Position numbers and translations under genes: made by a program
The notes under the pieces: model-generated
Databases searched by the model: none
Told to the model about the DNA's origin: nothing
What the model saw: only the letters and a program-made list of their open reading frames with translations
Part shown: one piece after another, positions 1 to 32,590 of the stretch
Layout of the letters: the number at the start of each line of letters is the position of its first letter
How positions within the stretch are numbered: the stretch's first letter is position 1
NCBI GenBank assembly: GCA_028292285.1
Contig: JAQGMP010000137.1
Location: 1 to 45,223, forward strand
Length of the DNA stretch: 45,223 bases
Direction: 5' to 3'
DNA from: Variovorax sp.
GTDB lineage: Bacteria; Pseudomonadota; Gammaproteobacteria; Burkholderiales; Burkholderiaceae_C

Positions 1-1078
1 GGCTTACACCTCGGGCACCACCGGACCGTCCAAGGGCAGCATGCTGTCGCATGCGGCGGCGCTTACCTACGGCACGAGCGCAGCGGAGGCGCAGGGCTAT
101 CGCGCCACCGATGTGTTCTATGTCTGCTTGCCGCTCTTCCACAACAACGCGCTGCTCGCGGCCACCGGGGCGGCGCTGGTTTGCGGTGCGTCGGTGGTGC
201 TGTCGCGGCGCTTCTCGGTGTCGCGCTTCTGGGGAGAAATCCGCGATTCGCACGCAACCATCACCAACTTCCTCGGCGCAATGTCCAGCTTTCTGTGGAG
301 CAGTCCGCCGTCGCCCGACGATGCGAAAAACGATCTGCGCCTGGTGAGCATGGCGCCGACGCCCAGGTACGCTGCGCAGTTCGAACAGCGATTCGGGCTG
401 AAAGCCATGAACAACTATGGCCTGTCGGATTTCGGCATGGTCACGTCGTTTACCGCGCACGAGCCGGTCGGCAAGCTCGGTTCCATCGGCAAGCCGCGCC
501 GCGGTTTCCACGTGAAGATCGTCGACGAGGACGATTTCGAGTTAGCAGATGGCGAGGTCGGCGAGATGGTGCTGCAAAGCGACGAACCCTGGCGCGCCAC
601 CACCGGCTACTACAAGATGGCCGAGGCCACGCTGGCGGCCAACCGAAACCAGTGGTTTCACACCGGTGATCGCGGCATGCGCGATGCCGACGGCTACCTG
701 TGGTTTGTCGATCGCAAGAAAGATTGCATCCGCCGCCGCGGCGAGAACATCTCGGCCTTCGAGGTCGAGCAGATCATCGCGACGCATCCCGAAGTGGCCA
801 ACGCCGCAGTGTTTCCGGTCGCGACGCAGACCAACGACGAAGAAGTCGGCGCGGTAGTGGTGCGTCTGCCCGGTTCGTTCGTGAGCGAGCAGGATCTGGT
901 CGAACACTGCCAGCGCAACATGGCCTACTTCATGGTGCCGCGCTATATCCAGTTTCGCGAGGCGCTGCCCACCACGGTGAATCAGAAGGTCGAGAAGTTC
1001 AGGCTTCGGACCGAGCTCGAGCGCGACCTGTCGGCGGCTTGGGACCGCGAGGCGGCCGGGATGGTGCTGTCGCGCTAG
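1..1078 (+). CDS. ATP-dependent acyl-CoA ligase (DitJ/CaiC-like), 5' truncated by window edge
   Basis: Frame is open from nt 2 (AYTSGTTGPSKG P-loop). Contains YGLSD, WFHTGD, DRKKDCIRRRGENIS and terminal QKVEK motifs of ANL-family ligases. Confidence 0.93.
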   Translation, partial: AYTSGTTGPSKGSMLSHAAALTYGTSAAEAQGYRATDVFYVCLPLFHNNALLAATGAALVCGASVVLSRRFSVSRFWGEIRDSHATITNFLGAMSSFLWSSPPSPDDAKNDLRLVSMAPTPRYAAQFEQRFGLKAMNNYGLSDFGMVTSFTAHEPVGKLGSIGKPRRGFHVKIVDEDDFELADGEVGEMVLQSDEPWRATTGYYKMAEATLAANRNQWFHTGDRGMRDADGYLWFVDRKKDCIRRRGENISAFEVEQIIATHPEVANAAVFPVATQTNDEEVGAVVVRLPGSFVSEQDLVEHCQRNMAYFMVPRYIQFREALPTTVNQKVEKFRLRTELERDLSAAWDREAAGMVLSR

Positions 1079-1868
1079 CCGGCGATCCCGCCGACGCCAC
1101 CGACGCACGTACGCCGGGCGGCAGGCCACGTGCTTTCACCATGTAGCCCTGATGCAGTTTGGTCAGCGCCGAAGCCATTTCTTTCACCGCTTTTTCCGCG
1201 TCGCGCTTGCGCAGATGCCCGAGCAACCGTCGCCGCGACGGCAGTGTGTAGGTCTGGTCTTCGGTCGGGCCGATCGCCTTCACGAACTGGCGCGTGATTT
1301 CCATGATGCCCTCGGTGGTGGCCAGCAGGATCGGGTTGTGCGTGGCCTTGGCCAGCAGCACATGGAAAGCCTGGTGGTACTTGGTGCGCTCTTCGAAATT
1401 GCCGGCCTTGTCCATTTGCGCAGCCATCGCCACCGTGCGTTCGAGCGCCTCCATGTCCTCTTCGGTCAGGCGCTCGCACGCCATGCGGATCACGGCCGAA
1501 CTGACCGAGATGCGCGCCTCGGTCAGATGGTCGGGCGTGATGGCACCGAGGAAGTACAGGTCGCGCATTCCGTTGACCACGGCGTTGGAACTCCCGGGCA
1601 GCACGAAGGCGCCGCCGGCCGAGCCGAGCTTCAGTTCCAGCAGGCCGCTGAGCTCGAGTGCGCGCAGTGCCTCGCGCATGGTGTTTCGGCTCACGCCGAA
1701 CATCTGCGCCAGATTGCGCTCCGGCGGCAACTTGTCACCGGGCTTGAGCTTGCCTTCGGAGATGTTGCGCCGGAGCTGGCTGGCGACTTCCTGGTAGATG
1801 CGCTGTGGGCTGATCGGCTCGATGCCGAAGGAGGAGGGGGTCTGGCCGGGTGCTTTCATGGCTGCCAT
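999..1868 (-). CDS. GntR/FadR-family transcriptional regulator (wHTH + FCD)
   Basis: LKPGDKLPPERNLAQMFGVSRNTMREAL wHTH; FCD with FH..L..ATHNP; AAGGAGG SD upstream. The 3' tail overlaps the ligase. Confidence 0.93.
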   Translation of the reverse strand: MAAMKAPGQTPSSFGIEPISPQRIYQEVASQLRRNISEGKLKPGDKLPPERNLAQMFGVSRNTMREALRALELSGLLELKLGSAGGAFVLPGSSNAVVNGMRDLYFLGAITPDHLTEARISVSSAVIRMACERLTEEDMEALERTVAMAAQMDKAGNFEERTKYHQAFHVLLAKATHNPILLATTEGIMEITRQFVKAIGPTEDQTYTLPSRRRLLGHLRKRDAEKAVKEMASALTKLHQGYMVKARGLPPGVRASVASAGSPASATAPSRPPRGPKPPTGRARARSEA

Positions 1869-1913: not shown

Positions 1914-1928
1914 AATGGTTAGACCAAT
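1914..1928. promoter_or_regulatory. Putative FadR/GntR operator AATGGTTAGACCAAT
   Basis: TGGT-N3-ACCA palindrome between divergent gntR and livH; the motif recurs in six other promoter positions. Confidence 0.75.
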
Positions 1929-14972: not shown

Positions 14973-14987
14973 ATTGGTCCATCCATT
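14973..14987. promoter_or_regulatory. Putative FadR/GntR operator (reverse strand reads AATGGATGGACCAAT)
   Basis: Palindrome variant in the divergent cyclase/thiolase intergenic region; minus-strand TATACT -10-like element at 14953-14958. Confidence 0.68.
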
Positions 14988-19146: not shown

Positions 19147-20559
19147 TCAAAGCGCCGGGCGCATCAGCATCGACGCGGTGCCGAGCGCCACCGCGGCGAT
19201 GCCGAGATAGAGGATGGCGAACACATGATTGATTCGCACCGTGACGGCGTAGATCGAAAAGCCCGAGTAGCGGCTGGCCATGAGCGCCATCATCGAGAAC
19301 GGCGTAGCGCAGCTTGCCACCGACCATCCGACCAGGATTGCCGCGAGGTGCGCCACCGGCGCGAGATGCAGCACCGACGGCGGCAGCGACGAAGCGACCA
19401 ACACCGCCGACAGCACCGGGTGGACCGCCGCGAACCCCAGCGCGATGATGGCCAGCATCAGCACCAGGCAGGCCAGGATGGCCGAGTGCGACAGGGCACC
19501 GCCGACCAGCGTGGTCCAGGCGATCGGCACCGCGCCCGCAATGATGGTGCCGCCGCAGCCCGCCACCATGAAAAGCGCCACTTCGCCGGCCAGCGCGGGC
19601 AGCGCGAGCACGTCGGCTCGCAGCAGCCGCGAAGCCTGCGCGAGGCGGAGTGGCCCGCGGGCCTGCGCGCAATGAAGCGCGAGGACCGCGAACGGAATCA
19701 CGATCACGATGGCGCCCGTCACGGTGATGTGCACCAGGTGCGACACCAGAATCACCGTGCCCAGAAAAGTCGCCATCACCGCGACCATCGGCCCCAGCGC
19801 CGAGCCCAGCGAACGTTCGGGCCGTTCGAGCGGCGGCGGCGCCGTGCGCCCGCGCAGCCGCCACAGGTCGAGCGCCGTGCCCACCACGATCGATCCGGCC
19901 GCAAGGCCGAGCGTGAGCGGCACCACGGTCGACCAGCTCAGGCCCGGGTACAGCGCCAGCAGGATCGTCAGGTTGCTCACCATCGGGCTCCACAGCGTGG
20001 CGGCCGAAAAACTGCGCGTGATGGCTGCGAACATCGACAGCCGGTCCTCGTCGATGCCGGCCTCGCCGCGCGACGCCATCTGTAGCAGCAGGTTGACCCC
20101 CGCCATGCCGAGCAGACCGCCGAAGAGCTGGGCTGCGAACGAGAACCAGGCATAACGGCTGCGCATGCTGCTCGTGAGCAGGTACTGCGCGACGATCCGC
20201 GTGTAGGAGCTTTCGAGCGCCGCGCGCGCGAGCAGCGAGACCGAGGACACGAGCGACACCATCAGCCCGCCGATCGCGATGCCGCGCCCCAAGCTTTGCA
20301 ACGGGTCGGCCGACAGCGGCAGGAGCGCAAGACTCACGCCCGCCACCGCCAGCGTCACGCGCCGGATGCTATGCGGAATGCGTCGGTGCGCCAGCAGCAG
20401 GAACAGCGCCGCTGCCGCGCCCATGAGCCAGACCGCGCCCGAGTCGGGCCGGAACTGCGTGGCCAGCGTGCTCAGTGCCACCACGATCAGGCAGACAGGC
20501 GCCCACCATTCGCGCGGCGCCGCTGCCACAGCGGCCGCTTCGCTTGACCGGGTCTTCAA
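19147..20559 (-). CDS. Hypothetical polytopic membrane protein (possible transporter)
   Basis: 470 aa with many hydrophobic segments; TTG start coupled to the upstream stop; no family motif recognised. Confidence 0.7.
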   Translation of the reverse strand: MKTRSSEAAAVAAAPREWWAPVCLIVVALSTLATQFRPDSGAVWLMGAAAALFLLLAHRRIPHSIRRVTLAVAGVSLALLPLSADPLQSLGRGIAIGGLMVSLVSSVSLLARAALESSYTRIVAQYLLTSSMRSRYAWFSFAAQLFGGLLGMAGVNLLLQMASRGEAGIDEDRLSMFAAITRSFSAATLWSPMVSNLTILLALYPGLSWSTVVPLTLGLAAGSIVVGTALDLWRLRGRTAPPPLERPERSLGSALGPMVAVMATFLGTVILVSHLVHITVTGAIVIVIPFAVLALHCAQARGPLRLAQASRLLRADVLALPALAGEVALFMVAGCGGTIIAGAVPIAWTTLVGGALSHSAILACLVLMLAIIALGFAAVHPVLSAVLVASSLPPSVLHLAPVAHLAAILVGWSVASCATPFSMMALMASRYSGFSIYAVTVRINHVFAILYLGIAAVALGTASMLMRPAL

Positions 20560-21401
20560 TTCAGCAGGAGCAGCGATGCCTGCCTCGCGCTCTGGCCCAC
20601 CTGCACGCCCTTGTCACGCGCGTGCTTGTTGGCCGCGCTGATCACGCCGTCGAAATAAGTGCTCTGGCCATCGCCCATGCGCGCGGTGAGAGCGCTGACC
20701 GACGCGCCCGCGATGCCGTCGGGCTCGACGGCCTCCAGGGCGCTCAGGCCCGAGTTGTTCTTGCCGATCCCGCCGTCTGAACAAATGAATGCCCAAGGCC
20801 GGAAGTCTCGAAAGTAGCCGATCACACTGCGGCCGGTATGGCCCGCGGTGCACAGCACGTTGTGCTCCTTGTCCTCGGGCAGTGCGTAAGCGATCGAATC
20901 GGTGCACACGATGCTGCGGCCGTTGGCGGCTGTGTGGATCAGGCGCCGGCGCGTCGGATCGAACACTTCGGGTTTCTTTTCGCCGCTTAGCATGTATTGC
21001 GCGCAGTCGCGGGCGCGCATGCCGGGCTCGATGCCCAGTGCCTGGGCGGCATCGTTGACGCGGCTCACGATGCCGTTGTCGTAGAGGTCGGCGCCATTGC
21101 CCATTTCGGCAGTCATGACGTCGACCGCGGCCGAGGGCACGCCGAGCGCCTCGTAGTACCAGAGCCCGGCGACGCCGGCACCGTCCTTGCCGATGGCGCA
21201 GTCGAGGCCGATGACGAATTTTGGCCGGGCCGACATCACCATGCGGGCGCACAGCACGCCGGAATACGAGGCGTTGACGACCAGGTCGCCCGCCGTGGCA
21301 GGCGCCTCGGCGACATGGCCCTCGACGTAGGTAGCCGAATCGAAGATCAGGATGCGGCCTTGCGGGCTCTGGATGATTCTGGGCGCGTGGCTGGATGCCA
21401 T
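20556..21401 (-). CDS. Hypothetical protein with two tandem homologous domains
   Basis: 281 aa; both halves share D-S, D..IGK...G...L, TA.MG.G...Y..G..S..N..A...G...G..AR. Confidence 0.8.
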   Translation of the reverse strand: MASSHAPRIIQSPQGRILIFDSATYVEGHVAEAPATAGDLVVNASYSGVLCARMVMSARPKFVIGLDCAIGKDGAGVAGLWYYEALGVPSAAVDVMTAEMGNGADLYDNGIVSRVNDAAQALGIEPGMRARDCAQYMLSGEKKPEVFDPTRRRLIHTAANGRSIVCTDSIAYALPEDKEHNVLCTAGHTGRSVIGYFRDFRPWAFICSDGGIGKNNSGLSALEAVEPDGIAGASVSALTARMGDGQSTYFDGVISAANKHARDKGVQVGQSARQASLLLLN

Positions 21402-21458: not shown

Positions 21459-21473
21459 AATGGTAAATCCATT
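21459..21473. promoter_or_regulatory. Putative FadR/GntR operator AATGGTAAATCCATT
   Basis: Palindrome in the divergent region upstream of gntR (21551) and the hypothetical gene (21401). Confidence 0.72.
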
Positions 21474-21550: not shown

Positions 21551-22402
21551 ATGGACGTGACTCAGGACCTGGCTTTCCAGCAGATCAAAACCCGTCGCGT
21601 GTTCGAAGAAATCTGCGAACAGATTCGCAACCGCTTGAGCTCAGGTGCCCTGAAGCCCGGTGACAAGCTGCCGGCCGAGCGTGACCTCGCGGTGGAATTC
21701 AAGGTCAGCCGCCCGGCCGTGCGCGAAGCGCTGCGCACGCTGGAAATCTCAGGCGTTGTGTCGCTGCGCAAGGGTGTCAAGGGCGGGGCGTTCATCCGCG
21801 ACGGCAACCCGGCGATGCTTACGCAGTCGCTGCAGGACCTGATGTTCCTGGGCAGCGTCTCGCTGCGCAGTCTGGCCGAGGCACGCGTGCTCATCAATGG
21901 CATGGTCATCAAGCTGGCGTGCGAGCGCGCCACCGAAGAGGATTTCAAGGCCATCCAGGAAAACATCGACTTTATCGAGAGCAGCGCAGACCTGCTTCAC
22001 CGCGCCAATGCCGGCGTGATGTTCTTCCGGATCATTGCCCGGGCAACGCGCAACGAGGTGTTGATGATGTTGGTCGATTCGCTCGGCGACATCATCCGTG
22101 TGGTGATCGATCGAACCGGCCGCGTCGCCCGGCCTGAGCTGGTCGCCGTGCGCAGACGGATCCTCGATGCGATGAAGGCGCGCAATGCCGACGCGGCCAT
22201 CGAAGGCATGAACGAATACCTGAGCGTGGTACATCGTGGCATCGATCTTGGTGTGCCGACCGAGCCAATCGAGGTGGTGAAGCCCGGCCGCGCCGTGGCA
22301 GCCGTGGCGAAGCGGGCCGCAGCAACGCGCAAGCCCGCGGCCGCGTCGCGCGTCGCGCTCAAGCGTGCACCTGCAGTTCCGACGCGGCGCGCCGCGCGGT
22401 AG
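21551..22402 (+). CDS. GntR/FadR-family transcriptional regulator with basic Ala/Arg/Lys-rich tail
   Basis: LKPGDKLPAERDLAVEFKVSRPAVREAL wHTH; FCD with ATRNEVL. Confidence 0.93.
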   Translation: MDVTQDLAFQQIKTRRVFEEICEQIRNRLSSGALKPGDKLPAERDLAVEFKVSRPAVREALRTLEISGVVSLRKGVKGGAFIRDGNPAMLTQSLQDLMFLGSVSLRSLAEARVLINGMVIKLACERATEEDFKAIQENIDFIESSADLLHRANAGVMFFRIIARATRNEVLMMLVDSLGDIIRVVIDRTGRVARPELVAVRRRILDAMKARNADAAIEGMNEYLSVVHRGIDLGVPTEPIEVVKPGRAVAAVAKRAAATRKPAAASRVALKRAPAVPTRRAAR

Positions 22403-22507: not shown

Positions 22508-22547
22508 TTGACAAAGCGATTTTGTCTTCTAGAATGGTAATACCATT
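22508..22547 (+). promoter_or_regulatory. Sigma70 promoter (TTGACA-16-TAGAAT) overlapped by perfect operator AATGGTAATACCATT (22533-22547)
   Basis: -35 at 22508-22513, -10 at 22530-22535; the palindrome covers the -10/+1 region upstream of the amidohydrolase. Confidence 0.82.
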
Positions 22548-22596: not shown

Positions 22597-23829
22597 ATGA
22601 CCGAAATCGTTGTCAACGAACAGAACAAGTGGCGTTTGAACACGCCCGGCGCAGAAGGCTGGGATAAAACGCCCCGACCCGGCGCTCCCAACAAGTACCT
22701 GATGATTTCGTCGGACACCCATGCCAACGAGCCCGGCAACCTGTGGGCCGAGCGCATCGACGCCAAGTACAAAGACCGTCTGCCCAAAATGTGGATCGAC
22801 GACAAGGGCATTCAGTGGCGCAAGATGGAAGCTTCGGAGCAGCCTGACCGCCTGGTGCTCGCCCGCCTCGAAGGCGAGGATCTCGCACGTTCCAGGGCCG
22901 GCGCCACCGCCACCGAACAAGGACCCTCTGTCGAGCAGCGTCTGAAAGACCTGGAGATGGACGGCATCGACGGCGAGGTGATCTTCCCAGGCAAGGGCTT
23001 GGGCATGTGGTACACGTTCGACCCCGAATTCGCGCATGCGCAGGTCGAGGTTTACAACACGTGGGCATGGGAAACCTTCGGCGCCCATATCGACCGGCTG
23101 TCGCCCGCCGCAGCGCTGGCCACTGGCGACCTGCCCGCGACCATCAAGGAGGTCGAACGCTGCCTGAAATTGGGCTTTCGCCACTTCACACTGCCGTGCA
23201 AGCCGCTCTTCGGCCCTCCCAAGACCAACGAACTCAACTACAACAAGGTCGACTTCGATCCGCTGTGGGCCATGTTCTGCGAGGCCGATGTGCCGGTGTC
23301 GTTTCACGTTTCGACCGGCAAGGATCCGCGTACCACGCGCGGTCTGGGCGGCGCAGTGGTCAACTACGTCGTGCACTCGCTTTCGCCCACGCTGGAGCCG
23401 CTGGTGAACATCTGCGCATCGGGCGTCGGCGAGCGCTTCCCCGACCTGAAGTTCGGCAGCGTCGAGGCCGGTATCGGCTGGCTGCCCTGGATGCTCGATG
23501 CCATGGACGAGGCCTACCTGAAGCACCACTTCTGGGTCAAGCCGAAGCTCAAGGCGTTGCCGAGCGATTATTTCCGCGCCAAGGGTTTTGCCACCTTCGG
23601 CGAAGACCGCCCGGGCCTCGCGCTGATCGAGGAATACGGCCTGCAGGACAACTTCATGTGGGCCAACGACTATCCCCACCATGAAGGAACCTGGCCGCAT
23701 TCGGCCGAGGCCATCGAGCGCCAGATGGGCAAGCTCACCGAAGTGACGCGTGCCAAGGTGCTCGGCGAGAACGCCGCCAAGGTATTCGGCTTCAAAGAAG
23801 CGATCGCCCGGTACAACGCCAAAAGCTGA
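22597..23829 (+). CDS. Amidohydrolase family 2 protein (decarboxylase/hydratase/C-C hydrolase-like)
   Basis: ISSDTH, DGIDGEVIFP, PVSFH, VEAGIGWLP, WANDYPHHEGTWP, GENAAKVF. Confidence 0.9.
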   Translation: MTEIVVNEQNKWRLNTPGAEGWDKTPRPGAPNKYLMISSDTHANEPGNLWAERIDAKYKDRLPKMWIDDKGIQWRKMEASEQPDRLVLARLEGEDLARSRAGATATEQGPSVEQRLKDLEMDGIDGEVIFPGKGLGMWYTFDPEFAHAQVEVYNTWAWETFGAHIDRLSPAAALATGDLPATIKEVERCLKLGFRHFTLPCKPLFGPPKTNELNYNKVDFDPLWAMFCEADVPVSFHVSTGKDPRTTRGLGGAVVNYVVHSLSPTLEPLVNICASGVGERFPDLKFGSVEAGIGWLPWMLDAMDEAYLKHHFWVKPKLKALPSDYFRAKGFATFGEDRPGLALIEEYGLQDNFMWANDYPHHEGTWPHSAEAIERQMGKLTEVTRAKVLGENAAKVFGFKEAIARYNAKS

Positions 23830-26824: not shown

Positions 26825-27565
26825 TCAGGGCTTCTGGCGCTCGTTCCAGAGAGCGAGGTATTTCACTTCGAGGCGCTGCAAGAACTTGGTCATCTCGAGG
26901 ACGGCGGCGTCCGCATCCCGTTCGCGCAGATGCTTCAGCAGCCGGCGCCGCGATGGCAAGGTGTAGGCGTTCTCGCTGGGCCCGATGCCCTTGATGAACT
27001 GCCGCATGACTTCCATCATGCCTTCCATCGTCACCTGAATGATGGGATTGCGCGTGGCACCCGCGAGGATGTTGTGGAACTGCCGATGCAGCTCGGCACG
27101 CTCGTCGAAATTGCCGGCTTTCTGCGCCTTGACGGCCGCCTGAACATTGGCTTCGAGCGCCTGCAGGTCTTCTTCGGTGATGCGTTCGCATGCCACTCGC
27201 ACGACGATGGCGCTGAGCCAGATGCGGGCCTCGGTCAAGTGCTGCGGCGTGATGGCGCCCAGATGGTAGAGATCGCGCAAACCATTGACGATCACCCCCG
27301 AACTCCCTGGCAACACGAAAGCGCCGCCCGTGGCGCCCTTGCGCAACTCGATCATTCCGGACAGTTCAAGCGCTCGCAGCGCCTCGCGCAGCGTGTTCCG
27401 GCTGACGTTGAACTTGGCGGACAGCCCGCGTTCGGCCGGCAGGCGATCGCCGGGCTTGAGTTTTCCGGTGGCCACCAGTTCGCGGATCTGACCGGCGATC
27501 TCTTCGAAGGCGCGTTGCGGGGTAATGGGGGCGAAGCCGAGGGCTGAGACGACGGTTTCTTTCAT
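26825..27565 (-). CDS. GntR/FadR-family transcriptional regulator (paralog of 999-1868)
   Basis: LKPGDRLPAERGLSAKFNVSRNTLREAL wHTH; FCD with FHNILAGATRNP. Confidence 0.93.
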   Translation of the reverse strand: MKETVVSALGFAPITPQRAFEEIAGQIRELVATGKLKPGDRLPAERGLSAKFNVSRNTLREALRALELSGMIELRKGATGGAFVLPGSSGVIVNGLRDLYHLGAITPQHLTEARIWLSAIVVRVACERITEEDLQALEANVQAAVKAQKAGNFDERAELHRQFHNILAGATRNPIIQVTMEGMMEVMRQFIKGIGPSENAYTLPSRRRLLKHLRERDADAAVLEMTKFLQRLEVKYLALWNERQKP

Positions 27566-27998: not shown

Positions 27999-28424
27999 TC
28001 AAATGGGACGCGACGCGAAAAGCGGTCCGTCCTCGAACTGAAGCGCGACCAACTCCATGGGCATTCCACACTCGAAGTTTTTGCCCTCGGTGTCGATCAT
28101 TCGCGTGGCGATGCGCAGGCCGATGTCGAGATCGACGACGCACAGCGCGTAGGGAGCTTCTTCCGTGAACACGCGCGGCGCCGCATGCACGCGCGTCCAT
28201 GAATAGAGCGTGCCACGCGCGCTCAGGTCTTTCCAAACCATCTTGTCCGACCAGCAATGGGGGCAGATCGGTTTTGGCGGAAAGGTGAATTTGCCGCAGG
28301 CTTCGCAGCAGGTGGTCTGCCATCGCCCTTGGGCCAGTCCGCTCCAGAACGGCTCGGTGAACTTCGACACGCGCGGCGGGTACGACCGCTTGCGCGCGAC
28401 GGGAATCAGTTGGAGTGTGCTCAT
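27999..28424 (-). CDS. DUF35 Zn-ribbon/OB-fold protein
   Basis: PFWSGL, CEACG..FPP..ICPHC, GTLYSWT, PYALCVVDL. Confidence 0.9.
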   Translation of the reverse strand: MSTLQLIPVARKRSYPPRVSKFTEPFWSGLAQGRWQTTCCEACGKFTFPPKPICPHCWSDKMVWKDLSARGTLYSWTRVHAAPRVFTEEAPYALCVVDLDIGLRIATRMIDTEGKNFECGMPMELVALQFEDGPLFASRPI

Positions 28425-29614
28425 CGTACGGCCTCCAGCACATGCATCAGGGCTGCGTTGTAGTTGCCGAGTTCGCCGGTCGTCAGGCCCAGCTCCGCAC
28501 CAGCCACTTGCCTTTCGCCGGCCCGGCCGCAGAGCTGGTCGGTCATCTCGATCATGTTGTAGAGCGAAGTCACGTAGGCCGGATGGCCCCGCGAGGTGAG
28601 TCCACCCGAAGTCGAAATCGGAATGCGCCCGCCCAGCTTCGTTTGCCCTTCGGCGGCGCCGGGCGCACCCTGGCCGCGGCCGAAGAAGCCGACTGCCTCG
28701 CTCACCAGAACTTCGACGATGGTGCAGGGCGCATAGAACTCGGCCACGTCGATGTCAGAGGCCGAAATGCCGGCCTCCTGATAGGCTGAAGCCGAGGCCT
28801 TCTTGGCGGCGATCAATTCGGTCATGTCGTTGGGCACTTCGTTGATCTGATGCGAGCCGTCGTGGCAAAAGCCGCGGCCGCGCACCAGCGCGTAAGGGCG
28901 GCCGAGCGTCTTGGCGACTTCCTCGGAAGCCAGCACCAGGCAGGCGGCGCCGTCGCTGCGGCCCGGTACGTCGTAAAGGCCCAGCGGCTCGACGATCGGG
29001 CGCTGCGCCATCACTTCGTCCAGCGTGATCGGCTTGCGGTATTGCGCCAGCGGATTGAGCGACGCGTGGTGCCGGTTCTTCACGGCCACCGCGCCGAACT
29101 GCTCGCGCGTCGCGCCCCAGTCATGCATGTAGCGCATCGCATCCATGGCATACCAGGAGATCGGAATGAACCCGGCGCTGGCCTGGAAGTCGATGTCGCC
29201 CGTGGTGCGCATGCTGCTCATCGCATGTTCTACAGAGGGCGTGGCGGCTTCCATGTTGATGCCGAGTGCCAGGGCCACGTTCGCCCGGCCCAGCAATATC
29301 TCATTGCAGGCCTGGTCGAAGGCAAGGGCAGCCGTCATGCCGTTGCCCATCACTTCCATCACTGTTCCCGTGCAGGCCAGGCGCAGGTGGCTTACGAGAA
29401 AGGTATGGAAGTATTTTTGCAGTGTGTAGGGCCGCGGTACCGTAAAGATAAGACTCTGAATGTCCCTTTTGTCGACGCCGGCGTCGTTGACGGCGTCGAC
29501 GACCAGGCGGGTCATGATTTCCTGCTCCAGCACCTGCAGCGGTTCATCGCTCCGCGTCTGGTGGCGCCCCACGGGGATGGCGCTGGTGCCAACGATGGCT
29601 ACCCTTCTTGTCAT
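28421..29614 (-). CDS. Thiolase-family protein (SCP-x type) lacking the usual nucleophilic Cys
   Basis: VAIVG, KNRHHASLNPLA, SDGAA, STSGGLTSRGHP; MGNGMT at the position of the usual xxACxx motif. Confidence 0.87.
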   Translation of the reverse strand: MTRRVAIVGTSAIPVGRHQTRSDEPLQVLEQEIMTRLVVDAVNDAGVDKRDIQSLIFTVPRPYTLQKYFHTFLVSHLRLACTGTVMEVMGNGMTAALAFDQACNEILLGRANVALALGINMEAATPSVEHAMSSMRTTGDIDFQASAGFIPISWYAMDAMRYMHDWGATREQFGAVAVKNRHHASLNPLAQYRKPITLDEVMAQRPIVEPLGLYDVPGRSDGAACLVLASEEVAKTLGRPYALVRGRGFCHDGSHQINEVPNDMTELIAAKKASASAYQEAGISASDIDVAEFYAPCTIVEVLVSEAVGFFGRGQGAPGAAEGQTKLGGRIPISTSGGLTSRGHPAYVTSLYNMIEMTDQLCGRAGERQVAGAELGLTTGELGNYNAALMHVLEAVR

Positions 29615-29674: not shown

Positions 29675-29689
29675 AATGGACAGACCATT
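29675..29689. promoter_or_regulatory. Putative FadR/GntR operator AATGGACAGACCATT
   Basis: Palindrome variant just upstream of a minus-strand TATACT (29663-29668) serving the thiolase operon. Confidence 0.72.
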
Positions 29690-29708: not shown

Positions 29709-29749
29709 TTGACAACGCAACCGGCTTACGTTAGATTGGTAATACCATT
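29709..29749 (+). promoter_or_regulatory. Sigma70 promoter (TTGACA-17-TAGATT) overlapped by operator ATTGGTAATACCATT (29735-29749)
   Basis: -35 at 29709-29714, -10 at 29732-29737; same architecture as the 22508 promoter. Confidence 0.82.
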
Positions 29750-29819: not shown

Positions 29820-30797
29820 ATGTCCGAACTTGTCACCCCGGCCGATGTCTTCGACGTGCGGGCCTTTCGCAACGCACTCGGCAGTTTCCCCACAGGCGTG
29901 GCCATCATCACCGCCGTGGGATCAGACGGCCGGCCGATCGGGCTGACCTGCAACTCGTTCAGTTCGGTGTCGCTCGATCCACCACTGGTATCGTGGGGCC
30001 TGCGCATCAACAGCAAGAGCCTCGAAGCTTTCCAGCAGGCCGATGCCTTTGCGATCAACATACTGGCCGAAGACCAGAAGGACCTGTCCGGCCGCTTCGC
30101 GAGCAGCAGCATCACCGACAAGTTCGATGGCGTCGCCTGGCGCCCCGGGCTTGGAGGCCTGCCGGTCATCGAGGAGTGCGTTGCGACCTTCGAATGCACC
30201 AAGTTTGCCGAGCACATGGCGGGCGATCACGTGCTCTTTCTCGGACAGGTCGCGAAATTCGAGCATGGCCGCCACGAAGACTCGCTGGTGTTCTACAAGG
30301 GCGCTTACATGATGCTCACCCAGTCGCTGCGCGAACTTGCGGCGCGGGGACGCATGGAGCCGCAAAATCTCGATCAGGCGCGGCGCCTGGTCAACTGCAT
30401 GCTGCTGCGCCTGGCCTGCGAGAACGGGCAAGAGGAAGACTTCGAGGCCATCGAGCGCAATATCCTCGAGATCGAGAGCTATGAAGATCTGACCGACCGC
30501 GAGAAGCGGGCGGAGGCGAGCCTCGAATTCTTCCGGCTGATTACCAAGGCCGCGCACAACGAGGTGCTGGTGGTGGTGTCGGAGACGCTCACCAGCATCA
30601 TGCGTCAGGTGCTGAAGGCCGAATCGTCGCTCAAGTACCGTCCCGAGCTCGTGCCGGTGCGCAAGCGCATCCTGACGCACCTGCGCCGGCGCAACGCCGA
30701 CGAGGCCGAGCTTGAAATGACCTATTACTTCGACCAGATGCGCCGCGGCGCGGCGGCCATCGTGGCTGCCGAAGCCGAGGCGAAAGGAACCCCATGA
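29820..30797 (+). CDS. Flavin reductase (HpaC-like) fused to a C-terminal FCD (GntR effector) domain, no HTH
   Basis: GGAG SD. N-terminal half has FRNALGSFPTGV, TCNSFSSVSLDPPL, AGDHVLFLG, LVFYKG. C-terminal half (ARRLV..LACE..EEDF.AI..N, AAHNEVL, ILTHLRRRNADEA) is FCD-like. Confidence 0.88.
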   Translation: MSELVTPADVFDVRAFRNALGSFPTGVAIITAVGSDGRPIGLTCNSFSSVSLDPPLVSWGLRINSKSLEAFQQADAFAINILAEDQKDLSGRFASSSITDKFDGVAWRPGLGGLPVIEECVATFECTKFAEHMAGDHVLFLGQVAKFEHGRHEDSLVFYKGAYMMLTQSLRELAARGRMEPQNLDQARRLVNCMLLRLACENGQEEDFEAIERNILEIESYEDLTDREKRAEASLEFFRLITKAAHNEVLVVVSETLTSIMRQVLKAESSLKYRPELVPVRKRILTHLRRRNADEAELEMTYYFDQMRRGAAAIVAAEAEAKGTP

Positions 30798-32590
30798 CTT
30801 CGACAAATTCCATTCCTTCGGCGACACCGGCCTCCGAGTGCGACGTGCTGGTGATCGGCGCCGGCGCTGGCGGCCTGTCGACTGCCATCACCGCGCGCAA
30901 GAACGGGCTCGACGTGCTGGTGATCGAGAAGGCATCGGTCTTCGGCGGCACCACCGCGTTCTCCGGCGGCGTGCTGTGGATTCCTTTGAGTCCGCACGCC
31001 AGGAAGGGCGGCGTCAAGGACAGCCGCGAGGCCGTCATGCGCTACATGCGCGCCGAGACCGGCGACTTTTTCGACGCGCCCGCAGTGGAGGCCTTCGTCG
31101 ATCGTGGACCCGAGATGGTCGAGTTCTTCGAGCGCGAGACCGAGGTCAAGTTCATCCCGACGCTGTATCCCGACTATCACCCGACGGCCGATGGCGGGGT
31201 CGATATCGGGCGCTCCATTCTGGCCGCGCCCTTCGACATACGCGGCTTGGGCAACGACATGGCGCGGTTGCGTCCGCCGCTCAAGACCATCACCTTCATC
31301 GGCATGATGTTCAACTCGTCGAATGCCGACCTCAAGCACTTTTTCAACGCGACCAAGTCGCTGAAGTCGGCCACTTATGTGGCCAGGCGACTGGTCAACC
31401 ACGTCAAGGAGCTGCTGCTGTATCGCCGCGGCGTGCAGGTCACCAGTGGCAACGCTCTTGCGGCGCGGCTGGCCAAGTCGGCGCTCGATTTGAAAATACC
31501 CATCTACACCGACACAGCGGCCAGCGAGCTGATTGTCGAAGGCGGTCGCGTGGTGGGTGCGGTCGTAAAGAGCGCGGCCGGCACGCAGCGCATTGGTGTG
31601 CGCAAGGCCGTGGTGTTGGCAGCGGGCGGCTTCGCCCATGACGTCGAGCGCATTGCCCAGGCCTATCCGCATCTGCGACGCGGCGGCGAGCATTTCTCCC
31701 CCGTGCCGAGCGACAACACCGGCGACGGCGGCCGGCTCGCCGAGCAGGTGGGCGGCTCGGTACCGATCCGCTATGCCGCTGCTGCCGCGTGGATGCCGAC
31801 CTCGAAGGTGCCGCAAGGCGACGGCCGCTTCGGTGCCTTTCCGCATCTGCTGGATCGCTACAAGCCCGGCATCATCGGCGTGACGCGGCGCGGCAAGCGC
31901 TTCACCAACGAGTCCAATTCGTACCACGACGTCGGTGCCGCGATGATCGAGGCCTGCAAGGACGACAAAGAGACCGCGATGTGGCTCATCTGCGATCAGG
32001 CGACCATCGGCAAATACGGCCTTGGCTACGCCAAACCTGCACCGATACCGCTCGCGCCGCTGGTGCGCAACGGCTATCTGGCCAAAGGCGCGACGCTGGC
32101 AGAGCTTGCGCGCAACGCAGGGATCGACGCTGCGGGCCTGGAACAGACCGTGCGTCAGTACAACGAAGGCGCGGTGCGCGGCGAGGATCCGGAGTTCGGT
32201 CGCGGCAGCACCTCGTTCAACCGCTACCTGGCAGACGCCGAACACAAACCCAACCCCTGCGTGGCGCCGATCCTCAAGGGACCCTTCTATGCGCTCAAGG
32301 TCGTGATGGGCGACCTGGGCACCTTCGATGGTATCCGCACCGATGTGGTCGGCCGGGTGCTGGCTGCTGACGGACAGCCGATTCCCGGCCTCTACGCTGC
32401 GGGCAATGACCGGGCCAGTGTCATGGGCGGCAACTATCCCGGTGCAGGTATCACGCTCGGTCCGATCATGACCTTCGGGTACCTGACGGCACGCCACATC
32501 GCCGGGCTCGAGCCCGAGCCGGAGCCCGCGGCGCAGCCGTTGCAACAAGCGCAGGCAGTCAGGAAAGCGGCCGATGCAGTACCCGTCTAA
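30794..32590 (+). CDS. FAD-dependent oxidoreductase, 3-ketosteroid dehydrogenase (KstD)-like
   Basis: DVLVIGAGAGG, GGTTAFSGGVLWIP, YPDY, RFTNESNSY, GDLGT, YPGAGITLG. Confidence 0.9.
   Translation: MTSTNSIPSATPASECDVLVIGAGAGGLSTAITARKNGLDVLVIEKASVFGGTTAFSGGVLWIPLSPHARKGGVKDSREAVMRYMRAETGDFFDAPAVEAFVDRGPEMVEFFERETEVKFIPTLYPDYHPTADGGVDIGRSILAAPFDIRGLGNDMARLRPPLKTITFIGMMFNSSNADLKHFFNATKSLKSATYVARRLVNHVKELLLYRRGVQVTSGNALAARLAKSALDLKIPIYTDTAASELIVEGGRVVGAVVKSAAGTQRIGVRKAVVLAAGGFAHDVERIAQAYPHLRRGGEHFSPVPSDNTGDGGRLAEQVGGSVPIRYAAAAAWMPTSKVPQGDGRFGAFPHLLDRYKPGIIGVTRRGKRFTNESNSYHDVGAAMIEACKDDKETAMWLICDQATIGKYGLGYAKPAPIPLAPLVRNGYLAKGATLAELARNAGIDAAGLEQTVRQYNEGAVRGEDPEFGRGSTSFNRYLADAEHKPNPCVAPILKGPFYALKVVMGDLGTFDGIRTDVVGRVLAADGQPIPGLYAAGNDRASVMGGNYPGAGITLGPIMTFGYLTARHIAGLEPEPEPAAQPLQQAQAVRKAADAVPV

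What the first reader, a model, noticed from the sequence alone, without database searches (positions are those of the whole stretch)
29820..30797. Flavin reductase fused to an HTH-less FCD domain that mirrors the local GntR repressor: ligand-gated reductase or anti-repressor
Seen: after a complete HpaC-type flavin reductase the protein continues MLTQSLRELAARG..LDQARRLV..LACE..EEDFEAIERNI..FFRLITKAAHNEVL..RPELVPVRKRIL..RNADEA. The GntR at 21551-22402 reads MLTQSLQDLMFLG..LAEARVLI..LACE..EEDFKAIQENI..FFRIIARATRNEVL..RPELVAVRRRIL..RNADAA immediately after its wHTH. Similarity starts at the GntR linker (MLTQSL, nt 21815 vs 30312), as if the DNA-binding domain had been swapped for a reductase. Both lack the usual FCD His residues (FFR instead of FH), and the fusion's own promoter carries the operator. 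Established: FCD domains bind effectors and mediate dimerisation, and the Acinetobacter HPA hydroxylase reductase C1 is controlled by a C-terminal MarR-like ligand domain. Inference: either reduced-flavin output is gated by the same inducer as the regulon, or the protein heterodimerises with the GntR and links flavin/NADH state to derepression. No obvious partner oxygenase lies in the window.
Basis: partly seen in the sequence, partly recalled or inferred. Interest (0 to 1): 0.85.

Follow-up and report, generated by a model that had tools for sequence, protein, structure and literature searches.

The report
Flavin reductase with borrowed repressor sensor
This bacterial gene joins an enzyme that likely makes reduced flavin to the small-molecule pocket of a gene-repressor family, so that a pathway metabolite likely switches the enzyme; the join is real, old and shared by many relatives, but the switching is untested.

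Summary
Observation confirmed. 29820-30797 encodes an HpaC-type flavin reductase plus an FCD with no HTH. The FCD is 45% identical to the GntR at 21551 (next own-genome FCD 33%), has lost all three metal histidines, and a FadR-type operator overlaps the gene's -10 box. It is no chimera and no local swap: all 120 listed hits share the architecture, 47 of 47 fusion FCDs form one clade (98/97) beside that GntR subfamily, and a window-specific capture is rejected (AU p=0.0005). Of 37 loci, 30 have no GntR or operator nearby and 29 of these lie within 5 kb of a luciferase-like monooxygenase; 7, including the window, are GntR-regulated with no such oxygenase. In 9 of 21 oxygenase-type genomes the fusion is the only match to this FCD subfamily, so anti-repression cannot be the general role. 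Best reading (0.55): an effector-gated flavin reductase, working like C1 and NtaB, whose sensor is MarR-like (NtaB tested here), not FCD. Ligand, direction and the window's flavin consumer are unknown. The scan found this family before on other DNA (e1-5159954). New variant of a known kind.

The parts
29820..30797 (+). Fusion gene (P0001, 325 aa): HpaC-type flavin reductase plus HTH-less FCD
29841..30311 (+). Flavin reductase split-barrel domain (about residues 8-164); R17 (= C1 Arg20), H137 (GDH) and the FPTGV and SFSSVSLDPP motifs are invariant or nearly so
   Evidence: Z 22 to C1, rmsd 1.4, 134 aligned
30312..30749 (+). FadR-type first helix (MLTQSL...) plus FCD bundle; His columns replaced by F238, R281, Y303; conserved R188, R230, R262, R281
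   Evidence: (Z 17-18 to DhdR, McbR, DgoR, PdhR C-domains)
29709..29737 (+). Sigma70-like promoter TTGACA-17-TAGATT (consensus match only; conserved in L001)
29735..29749 (.). FadR-type operator ATTGGTAATACCATT overlapping the fusion's -10
29675..29689 (.). Second operator AATGGACAGACCATT in the divergent thiolase/fusion promoter region; an equivalent site is in L001, L002, L003
29810..29814 (+). Ribosome-binding site AGGAG
21551..22402 (+). GntR_B: His-less FadR-subfamily regulator, the closest own-genome relative of the fused FCD
26825..27565 (-). GntR_C: related regulator (keeps the first His only), alternative owner of the operator
999..1868 (-). GntR_A: related regulator, alternative owner of the operator (start codon uncertain)
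30794..32590 (+). KstD/ChcC-like FAD-binding oxidoreductase overlapping the fusion stop (ATGA); adjacent in L001, L002, L003, L139
32574..32918 (+). NIPSNAP gene, third gene of the likely operon
28421..29614 (-). Lipid-transfer-type thiolase; adjacent to the fusion in all 7 GntR-type loci
27999..28424 (-). ChsH2-type Zn-ribbon/OB partner of the thiolase
22597..23829 (+). Amidohydrolase_2; near the fusion in 6 of 7 GntR-type loci (the seventh is a 1.7-kb contig)
21459..21473 (.). Operator in front of GntR_B
22533..22547 (.). Operator in front of the amidohydrolase
14973..14987 (.). Operator between the cyclase and first thiolase genes
1914..1928 (.). Operator between GntR_A and the ABC transporter

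Best explanation
The protein is a two-domain fusion that is likely an effector-gated NAD(P)H:flavin reductase, in which the FCD, taken once and long ago from the His-less GntR subfamily that is predicted to run this catabolic regulon, likely binds an anionic pathway metabolite and likely switches reduced-flavin release. Shown: architecture, intact catalytic motifs, single origin, purifying selection on both halves, an arginine-lined pocket shared with the 21551 GntR, operator placement, and co-location with luciferase-like monooxygenases in most relatives. Inferred: (1) it dimerises like other HpaC enzymes, with the two FCDs pairing on the same dimer as in FadR-type repressors; (2) without ligand the FCD or its first helix, which runs straight on from the reductase tail (predicted helix 159-175), hinders NADH binding near R17/H137, as C1's MarR domain does; (3) ligand binding, in the window likely the inducer that also derepresses the gene, lifts this, so NADH is not wasted and H2O2 is not made when no substrate is present; (4) relatives hand the flavin to a neighbouring luciferase-like monooxygenase. 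In the window's clade the consumer is not identified: it may be encoded elsewhere or be the translationally coupled KstD-like flavoprotein. The direction (activation, or product inhibition) is not determined.
For: Catalytic columns R17, F23-V27, S46-P55, G135-D136-H137 and Y163 are invariant or near-invariant in 124 aligned fusions. R17 aligns with C1 Arg20, the NADH-binding and autoinhibition residue in PMC11618861 (passages). Pocket R230 144/145, R281 145/145, R188 125/145 and R262 123/145 in fusions, with the same residues in the GntR subfamily. 10 of 13 hand-picked pocket columns are identical between P0001 and GntR_B, while the LysR/oxygenase clade changes R188Y, N192Y and Y303L, as a retuned sensor would. 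dN/dS is 0.12-0.38 on the FCD and 0.09-0.19 on the reductase in 4 pairs. 29 of 30 non-GntR loci have a luciferase-like monooxygenase within 5 kb, including NtaA/DmoA-type ones. HpaC reductases have captured other regulator domains: MarR-like in 60 of 79 long non-FCD proteins by a local HMM (6 of them built it), IclR_C in 6 of 71, each on separate branches of the reductase tree. The known members of that pattern, C1 and NtaB, are substrate-stimulated (PMC11618861, PMC10816480, passages).
Against: No biochemical or structural test of gating. No inter-domain contact could be inspected: the monomer model has pTM 0.73 but gives no coordinates. No FMNH2-using oxygenase lies near any of the 7 GntR-type loci, nor on the same contig within 160 kb in 4 whole genomes, and no operator-like site lies on the contigs of the genome's 8 luciferase-like or 3 PF08028 genes (genome 59% complete). 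Operator-bearing contigs instead carry P450/ferredoxin and Rieske/PDR systems with their own reductases. C1's acidic clamp (E248/E251) has no identified counterpart. The 30 oxygenase-type loci are largely Variovorax kin, so they are not independent.
Confidence: 0.55

Rival explanations
1. Ordinary, ungated flavin reductase; the FCD is kept as a dimer or tetramer scaffold or as a docking handle for the partner enzyme.
For: FCDs dimerise (established knowledge). The surface motif AxHN...LRxRD is conserved. No ligand is known.
Against: Buried pocket arginines are near-invariant and the pocket is retuned between contexts, which a pure scaffold would not need. HpaC reductases dimerise without extra domains (established; many stand-alone structures).
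Confidence: 0.2
2. Anti-repressor or redox sensor: the fused FCD heterodimerises with GntR_B (or A or C) and couples flavin/NADH state to derepression.
For: 45% identity to GntR_B, including the first helix. In 7 of 37 loci the gene is operator-controlled, and in the 6 with long flanks it lies beside this GntR subfamily with no oxygenase near. These loci fall in two separate fusion lineages (L098 is on a distant branch).
Against: 30 of 37 loci have no such GntR within the fetched flank. In 9 of 21 such genomes the fusion is the only match to the GntR_B FCD at E<=1e-8 (G103 is a single contig, 99% complete), and other matches are 42% or less. In a reductase homodimer the partner FCD would out-compete GntR (inference). 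45% identity is paralogue-level divergence; GntR_A/C and C427 coexist with GntR_B at similar or greater distance.
Confidence: 0.1
3. Self-contained substrate reductase, or dedicated electron donor: the FCD holds the pathway intermediate (or docks the KstD-like neighbour) so that the reduced flavin acts on it directly, without an oxygenase.
For: No oxygenase lies near the GntR-type loci. The KstD/ChcC-like FAD protein overlaps the fusion's stop in the window, L001, L002 and L003 and is adjacent in L139. HpaC-fold proteins include a nitroreductase (NbaA, row 32).
Against: The KstD-like gene is absent from L098's flank and from all 30 oxygenase-type loci at 60% identity or more. FCD pockets are buried, away from the barrel (established). 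KstD-type enzymes are usually dehydrogenases (recalled).
Confidence: 0.12
4. Assembly chimera or recent accidental local recombination.
For: The genome is a 59%-complete assembly. There is weak DNA similarity to gntR_B (66% over 188 nt).
Against: 120 of 120 listed hits, self included, carry both domains. Syntenic copies exist in cultured strains. One clade in both domain trees. AU p=0.0005 against local capture.
Confidence: 0.01

Closest known systems
C1, reductase of p-hydroxyphenylacetate 3-hydroxylase, Acinetobacter baumannii (PDB 5ZC2/5ZYR; NF045919)
   Same: N-terminal HpaC-type barrel (E 6e-37; Z 22), Arg20 and His139 equivalents, similar length, and a C-terminal domain borrowed from a transcription regulator
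   Different: Sensor is MarR-like, not FCD; only residues 5-166 align; NF045919 score 168 against a cut-off of 340; gating is shown for C1 only
NtaB/NmoB, NTA monooxygenase component B (Aminobacter; found here as L111:3953-4921, matching 11 of 11 residues cited in PMC11618861)
   Same: About 320-aa HpaC-type reductase with a regulatory C-domain, beside a luciferase-like NtaA monooxygenase, as some fusion relatives are (L004, L096, L097)
   Different: Its C-domain matches the MarR HMM (E 6e-10) and not the FCD HMM (E 1.7) (Pfam finds no FCD). The database label 'NtaB' on P0005 is therefore a name transfer
FadR-subfamily GntR regulators (PdhR, LldR, DgoR, McbR, DhdR; Pfam FCD PF07729)
   Same: FCD bundle with the extra first helix (Z 17-18); operators of the TGGT-N3-ACCA type
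   Different: No HTH. The three metal His described for TM0439/HypR (PMC6608401, passages) are replaced by F, R and Y, so this is a metal-free arginine pocket
Uncharacterised reductase-IclR_C and reductase-GntR(HTH)-FCD fusions
   Same: HpaC reductase plus the effector domain of a regulator
   Different: Separate origin (P0283's C-part scores 12 bits on the family FCD HMM); the Actinomycetota clusters partly keep the HTH (15% and 61% of members, scores under 0.9, lead only)

Membership tests
HpaC/PheA2-type flavin reductase (PF01613) | Pfam hit over the cut-off and FMN-binding split-barrel fold | tested here: met
   141.9 bits against 27; Z 20-23 to solved members
HpaC/PheA2-type flavin reductase (PF01613) | Conserved Arg (C1 R20), S-F-x-S-V-S-L-x-P-P and GDH His | tested here: met
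   invariant in 124 rows
HpaC/PheA2-type flavin reductase (PF01613) | NAD(P)H-dependent flavin reduction | not testable with these tools
   needs an assay
FCD (PF07729) | Pfam hit over the cut-off and helical-bundle fold | tested here: met
   54.3 bits against 24.3; Z 17-18
Metal-binding FCD (TM0439/LldR type) | Three His | tested here: not met
   F238, R281, Y303
GntR transcription factor | N-terminal winged HTH (PF00392) | tested here: not met
   no hit at E<=1
C1/NtaB-type allosteric reductase | C-terminal MarR-like domain | tested here: not met
   P0001 C-part on the MarR HMM E 2.8, on the FCD HMM E 7e-61; NF045919 below cut-off
C1/NtaB-type allosteric reductase | Substrate-stimulated flavin reduction | not testable with these tools
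   needs kinetics
Reductase component of a two-component flavin monooxygenase | Partner oxygenase gene nearby | tested here: inconclusive
   met in 29 of 30 non-GntR loci, not met in 7 of 7 GntR-type loci including the window; own genome 59% complete
Anti-repressor by heterodimer formation | Co-occurs with and binds its cognate repressor | tested here: inconclusive
   co-occurrence fails in 9 of 21 oxygenase-type genomes but holds in GntR-type loci; binding was not tested (complex-prediction tool unavailable)

The most novel reading that the evidence does not exclude
HpaC reductases have at least three times taken over a repressor's effector domain (MarR, IclR_C, FCD). In the oxygenase-free clade of this window, the captured FCD reads the same inducer as the repressor of its own gene, making a one-ligand double lock (transcription and catalysis), and gates NADH-derived flavin into a non-oxygenase partner or back onto the GntR as a redox-coupled anti-repressor.
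Probability: 0.2. Interest if true: 0.75.

Novelty: new variant of a known kind. Interest (0 to 1): 0.48.

Why it matters
Only MarR-type allosteric flavin reductases (C1, NtaB, the P. putida HPAH reductase) are described in the paper read (PMC11618861). A second, unrelated sensor fold on the same enzyme would show that gating of reduced-flavin release evolved repeatedly by capture of regulator domains. It would also give a modular, ligand-switched reductase for biocatalysis with less H2O2. Because the pocket matches the local repressor's, the pair offers a direct test: find the GntR inducer, then try it on the enzyme. Four targeted searches of the paper library listed no paper on this fusion; most subscription journals are not covered.

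Tried and rejected
NtaB as an existing FCD-fusion precedent (recalled lead): rejected, its C-domain is MarR-like. The acyl-CoA-dehydrogenase-like genes next to many relatives as group D oxygenases: rejected, they are PimC/D-like; the partner there is the upstream luciferase-like gene. A local or recent capture of the 21551 FCD: rejected. Search for an operator-controlled flavin oxygenase in the own genome: none found, 0 of 10 contigs checked. Sequencing runs: no RNA holder listed, no evidence on expression. Phongsak et al. 2012 is not held; I rely on PMC11618861 and PMC10816480 (passages only; supplements not seen, and the NtaB model is in a supplement figure). PMC12288454 gave no DgoR pocket residues, so the pocket mapping rests on my alignment to canonical own-genome FCDs. 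Order-wide search: 1 of 400 other genomes, and it was in the own family; only 5 candidates per genome were scored, so this is 'not found', not absent. G368's two FCD hits are plain GntRs. Rows dropped: L101 (same contig as L007) and L187 (partial) from the 39; two Xenophilus paralogues (L113) were missed by that filter; 27 near-redundant or long rows and 14 distant outgroup rows were dropped for the AU test.

Full report
Observation. The ORF 29820-30797(+) gives a 325-aa protein (P0001) with Flavin_Reduct 21-164 and FCD 186-304 and no HTH; the 21551-22402 protein (GntR_B) has GntR plus FCD. Similarity begins at MLTQSL at the stated coordinates (E 4e-34). Among the genome's 23 FCD matches the fused FCD is closest to GntR_B (45%, 112 bits), then to the window's two other GntRs (A at 999-1868, C at 26825-27565; 32-33%), with canonical FCDs at 33 bits or less. 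The AlphaFold model (124-row alignment, pLDDT 89.8, pTM 0.73) shows a split barrel followed, through one continuous helix (159-175), by an FCD bundle. The structural search finds HpaC-type reductases for 24-162 (Z 20-23) and GntR C-domains for 169-315 (DhdR, McbR, DgoR, PdhR; Z 17-18). No listed solved chain matched both halves.

Operator. WTGGW-N3-ACCAW occurs at 7 sites in the window (11 strand-matches against 0.2 expected, 0 of 100 shuffles), all but one in intergenic regions ahead of operons (11991 overlaps a start/stop junction). It fits the FadR-subfamily TKGT/ACMA consensus with 3 nt spacing (PMC4494728, passages). One copy overlaps the -10 of a TTGACA-17-TAGATT promoter in front of the fusion and is conserved in L001; an equivalent of the second copy is in L001-L003. 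Three related GntRs sit in the window, so which one binds is open. The motif clusters on contigs C92, C654, C427 and C362 as well (32 sites genome-wide). These carry CoA-transferases, thiolase/OB pairs, a LigX-like Rieske oxygenase with its reductase, and P450/ferredoxin genes. The regulon looks like catabolism of a lipophilic ring compound through CoA esters (inference); the substrate is unknown.

Family and origin. All 120 listed best hits (self included) carry PF01613 plus PF07729. Full-length copies occur in 13 of 80 GTDB loci (Xenophilus, Variovorax, Ramlibacter, Pseudorhodoferax, one Alcaligenaceae), in 13 of 400 genomes of the own family and in 1 of 400 across the order. A profile search of 1.8 billion representatives adds 8 further two-domain clusters at 50% identity. 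In the FCD tree (95 rows, 149 columns) 47 of 47 fusion FCDs form one clade (98/97), inside a 94/99 group with the GntR_B subfamily and one own paralogue; GntR_A and C lie outside. Forcing the window-clade FCDs together with GntR_B is rejected (AU p=0.00048; 54 rows). The reductase halves of 54 fusions also lie on one side of a branch (SH-aLRT 92), with 4 short unlabelled rows inside. So one old capture from the GntR_B lineage, not a local swap or chimera. Both halves are under purifying selection.

Pocket. The three His columns (H 15/15, 15/15, 12/15 in canonical own FCDs; described for TM0439/HypR in PMC6608401, passages) are F238, R281 and Y303. Fusions keep R230 (144/145), R281 (145/145), R188 (125/145) and R262 (123/145), and the GntR subfamily shares them. 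This points to a metal-free pocket for an anion (inference). The window's protein matches GntR_B at 10 of 13 hand-picked columns; the oxygenase/LysR clade has R188Y, N192Y and Y303L while keeping R230 and R281. That is the pattern expected of a working sensor that was retuned.

Context splits in two (37 loci after dropping one duplicate and one fragment; many are close Variovorax kin). Seven loci (window, L001-L003, L098, L130, L139) have the operator within 350 nt upstream and the thiolase next door; the 6 with long flanks also have a GntR of this subfamily. None has a luciferase-like monooxygenase in the fetched flank, and 4 whole genomes show none within 160 kb on the same contig. Thirty loci have no operator and no such GntR; 29 have a luciferase-like monooxygenase within 5 kb, often the gene directly upstream, of several types including NtaA/DmoA. 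In 9 of 21 such genomes the fusion is the only match to the GntR_B FCD. One mixed case exists: two 54% paralogues in the L001 genome lie 1.6 and 10 kb from a luciferase-like gene that has an operator-like site upstream. In the window's clade the downstream KstD/ChcC-like FAD gene overlaps the stop codon. The flavin consumer for this window is thus unidentified; the genome is only 59% complete.

Comparison with known systems. C1 of A. baumannii HPAH is autoinhibited by a MarR-like C-domain that clamps Arg20, and HPA releases it; NtaB and the P. putida reductase are named as similar (PMC11618861 and PMC10816480, passages). P0001 R17 aligns with Arg20. I located NtaB in an Aminobacter plasmid (ntaR-ntaA-307 nt-ntaB), confirmed 11 of 11 residues cited in the paper, and found its C-domain MarR-like, not FCD. 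Among long HpaC reductases, 60 of 79 have MarR-like tails by a local HMM, 6 of 71 have IclR_C and 1 a GntR HTH. The Atlas, queried with homologue P0005, lists three clusters of this family and, as leads under 0.9, reductase-(HTH)-FCD proteins of Actinomycetota. P0001 is therefore not a member of the C1/NtaB family but likely works like it.

Mechanism. Best (0.55): an effector-gated reductase, as set out under Best explanation. Rivals: ungated reductase with a scaffold FCD (0.2), direct substrate or KstD-coupled reductase (0.12), anti-repressor (0.1), artefact (0.01). Gating itself, the ligand and the direction are untested.

Novelty. Searches listed no paper on a flavin reductase-FCD fusion (listings only; one search was broader and its listing showed none either). 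New here are the phylogenetic test against local capture, the two mutually exclusive gene contexts, the shared arginine pocket and the NtaB check. Verdict: a real, uncharacterised new variant of effector-controlled flavin reductases; interest 0.48.

Noticed in passing
P0279, P0339, P0345, P0346, P0352, P0377: HpaC-type flavin reductases fused to an IclR effector domain (IclR_C) with no HTH hit, one side of a branch (SH-aLRT 86): a likely third independent sensor capture.
   Followed up: partly
P0283, P0386 and Atlas clusters ranked 7 and 11: Flavin reductase fused to a GntR HTH and a C-terminal domain, in Bradyrhizobium and in Actinomycetota clusters; apparently a separate origin.
   Followed up: partly
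window 20556-21401 (-): 281-aa protein with an internal repeat and only a sub-threshold DUF1805 hit, divergent from GntR_B behind an operator; 83-87% conserved in L001 and L003. No family found.
   Followed up: no
window 999-1868, 21551-22402, 26825-27565; G000 C427, C362: A whole His-poor FadR subfamily (R at the second His column in 121 of 121 rows) runs large catabolic islands with one shared operator type; none is characterised as far as searched.
   Followed up: partly
G000 C654:11428-12100 and C427:5866-6837 (L127, L128): Two contig-end P450 fragments with near-identical overlapping sequence (CYP153-like by recalled motif) on operator-bearing contigs: two close paralogues or one gene split by the assembly.
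   Followed up: no
L113 (G401:C142:678-11756): Inverted duplication of a TctC / Fe-ADH / fusion / enoyl-CoA hydratase block, giving two further fusion paralogues next to a luciferase-like monooxygenase.
   Followed up: partly
L099 (G262): Oxygenase-clade fusion whose upstream luciferase-like gene and downstream acyl-CoA dehydrogenases are missing, while LysR and the CoA ligase remain.
   Followed up: no
L005-L012, L102-L109: Conserved Variovorax-type operon: luciferase-like monooxygenase, fusion, PimC/D-like pair, enoyl-CoA hydratase, ADP-forming CoA ligase, SDR, glyoxalase, SnoaL; substrate unknown.
   Followed up: partly
window 19147-20559 (-): Membrane protein with no Pfam or NCBIfam hit, 71% conserved in L001.
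   Followed up: no
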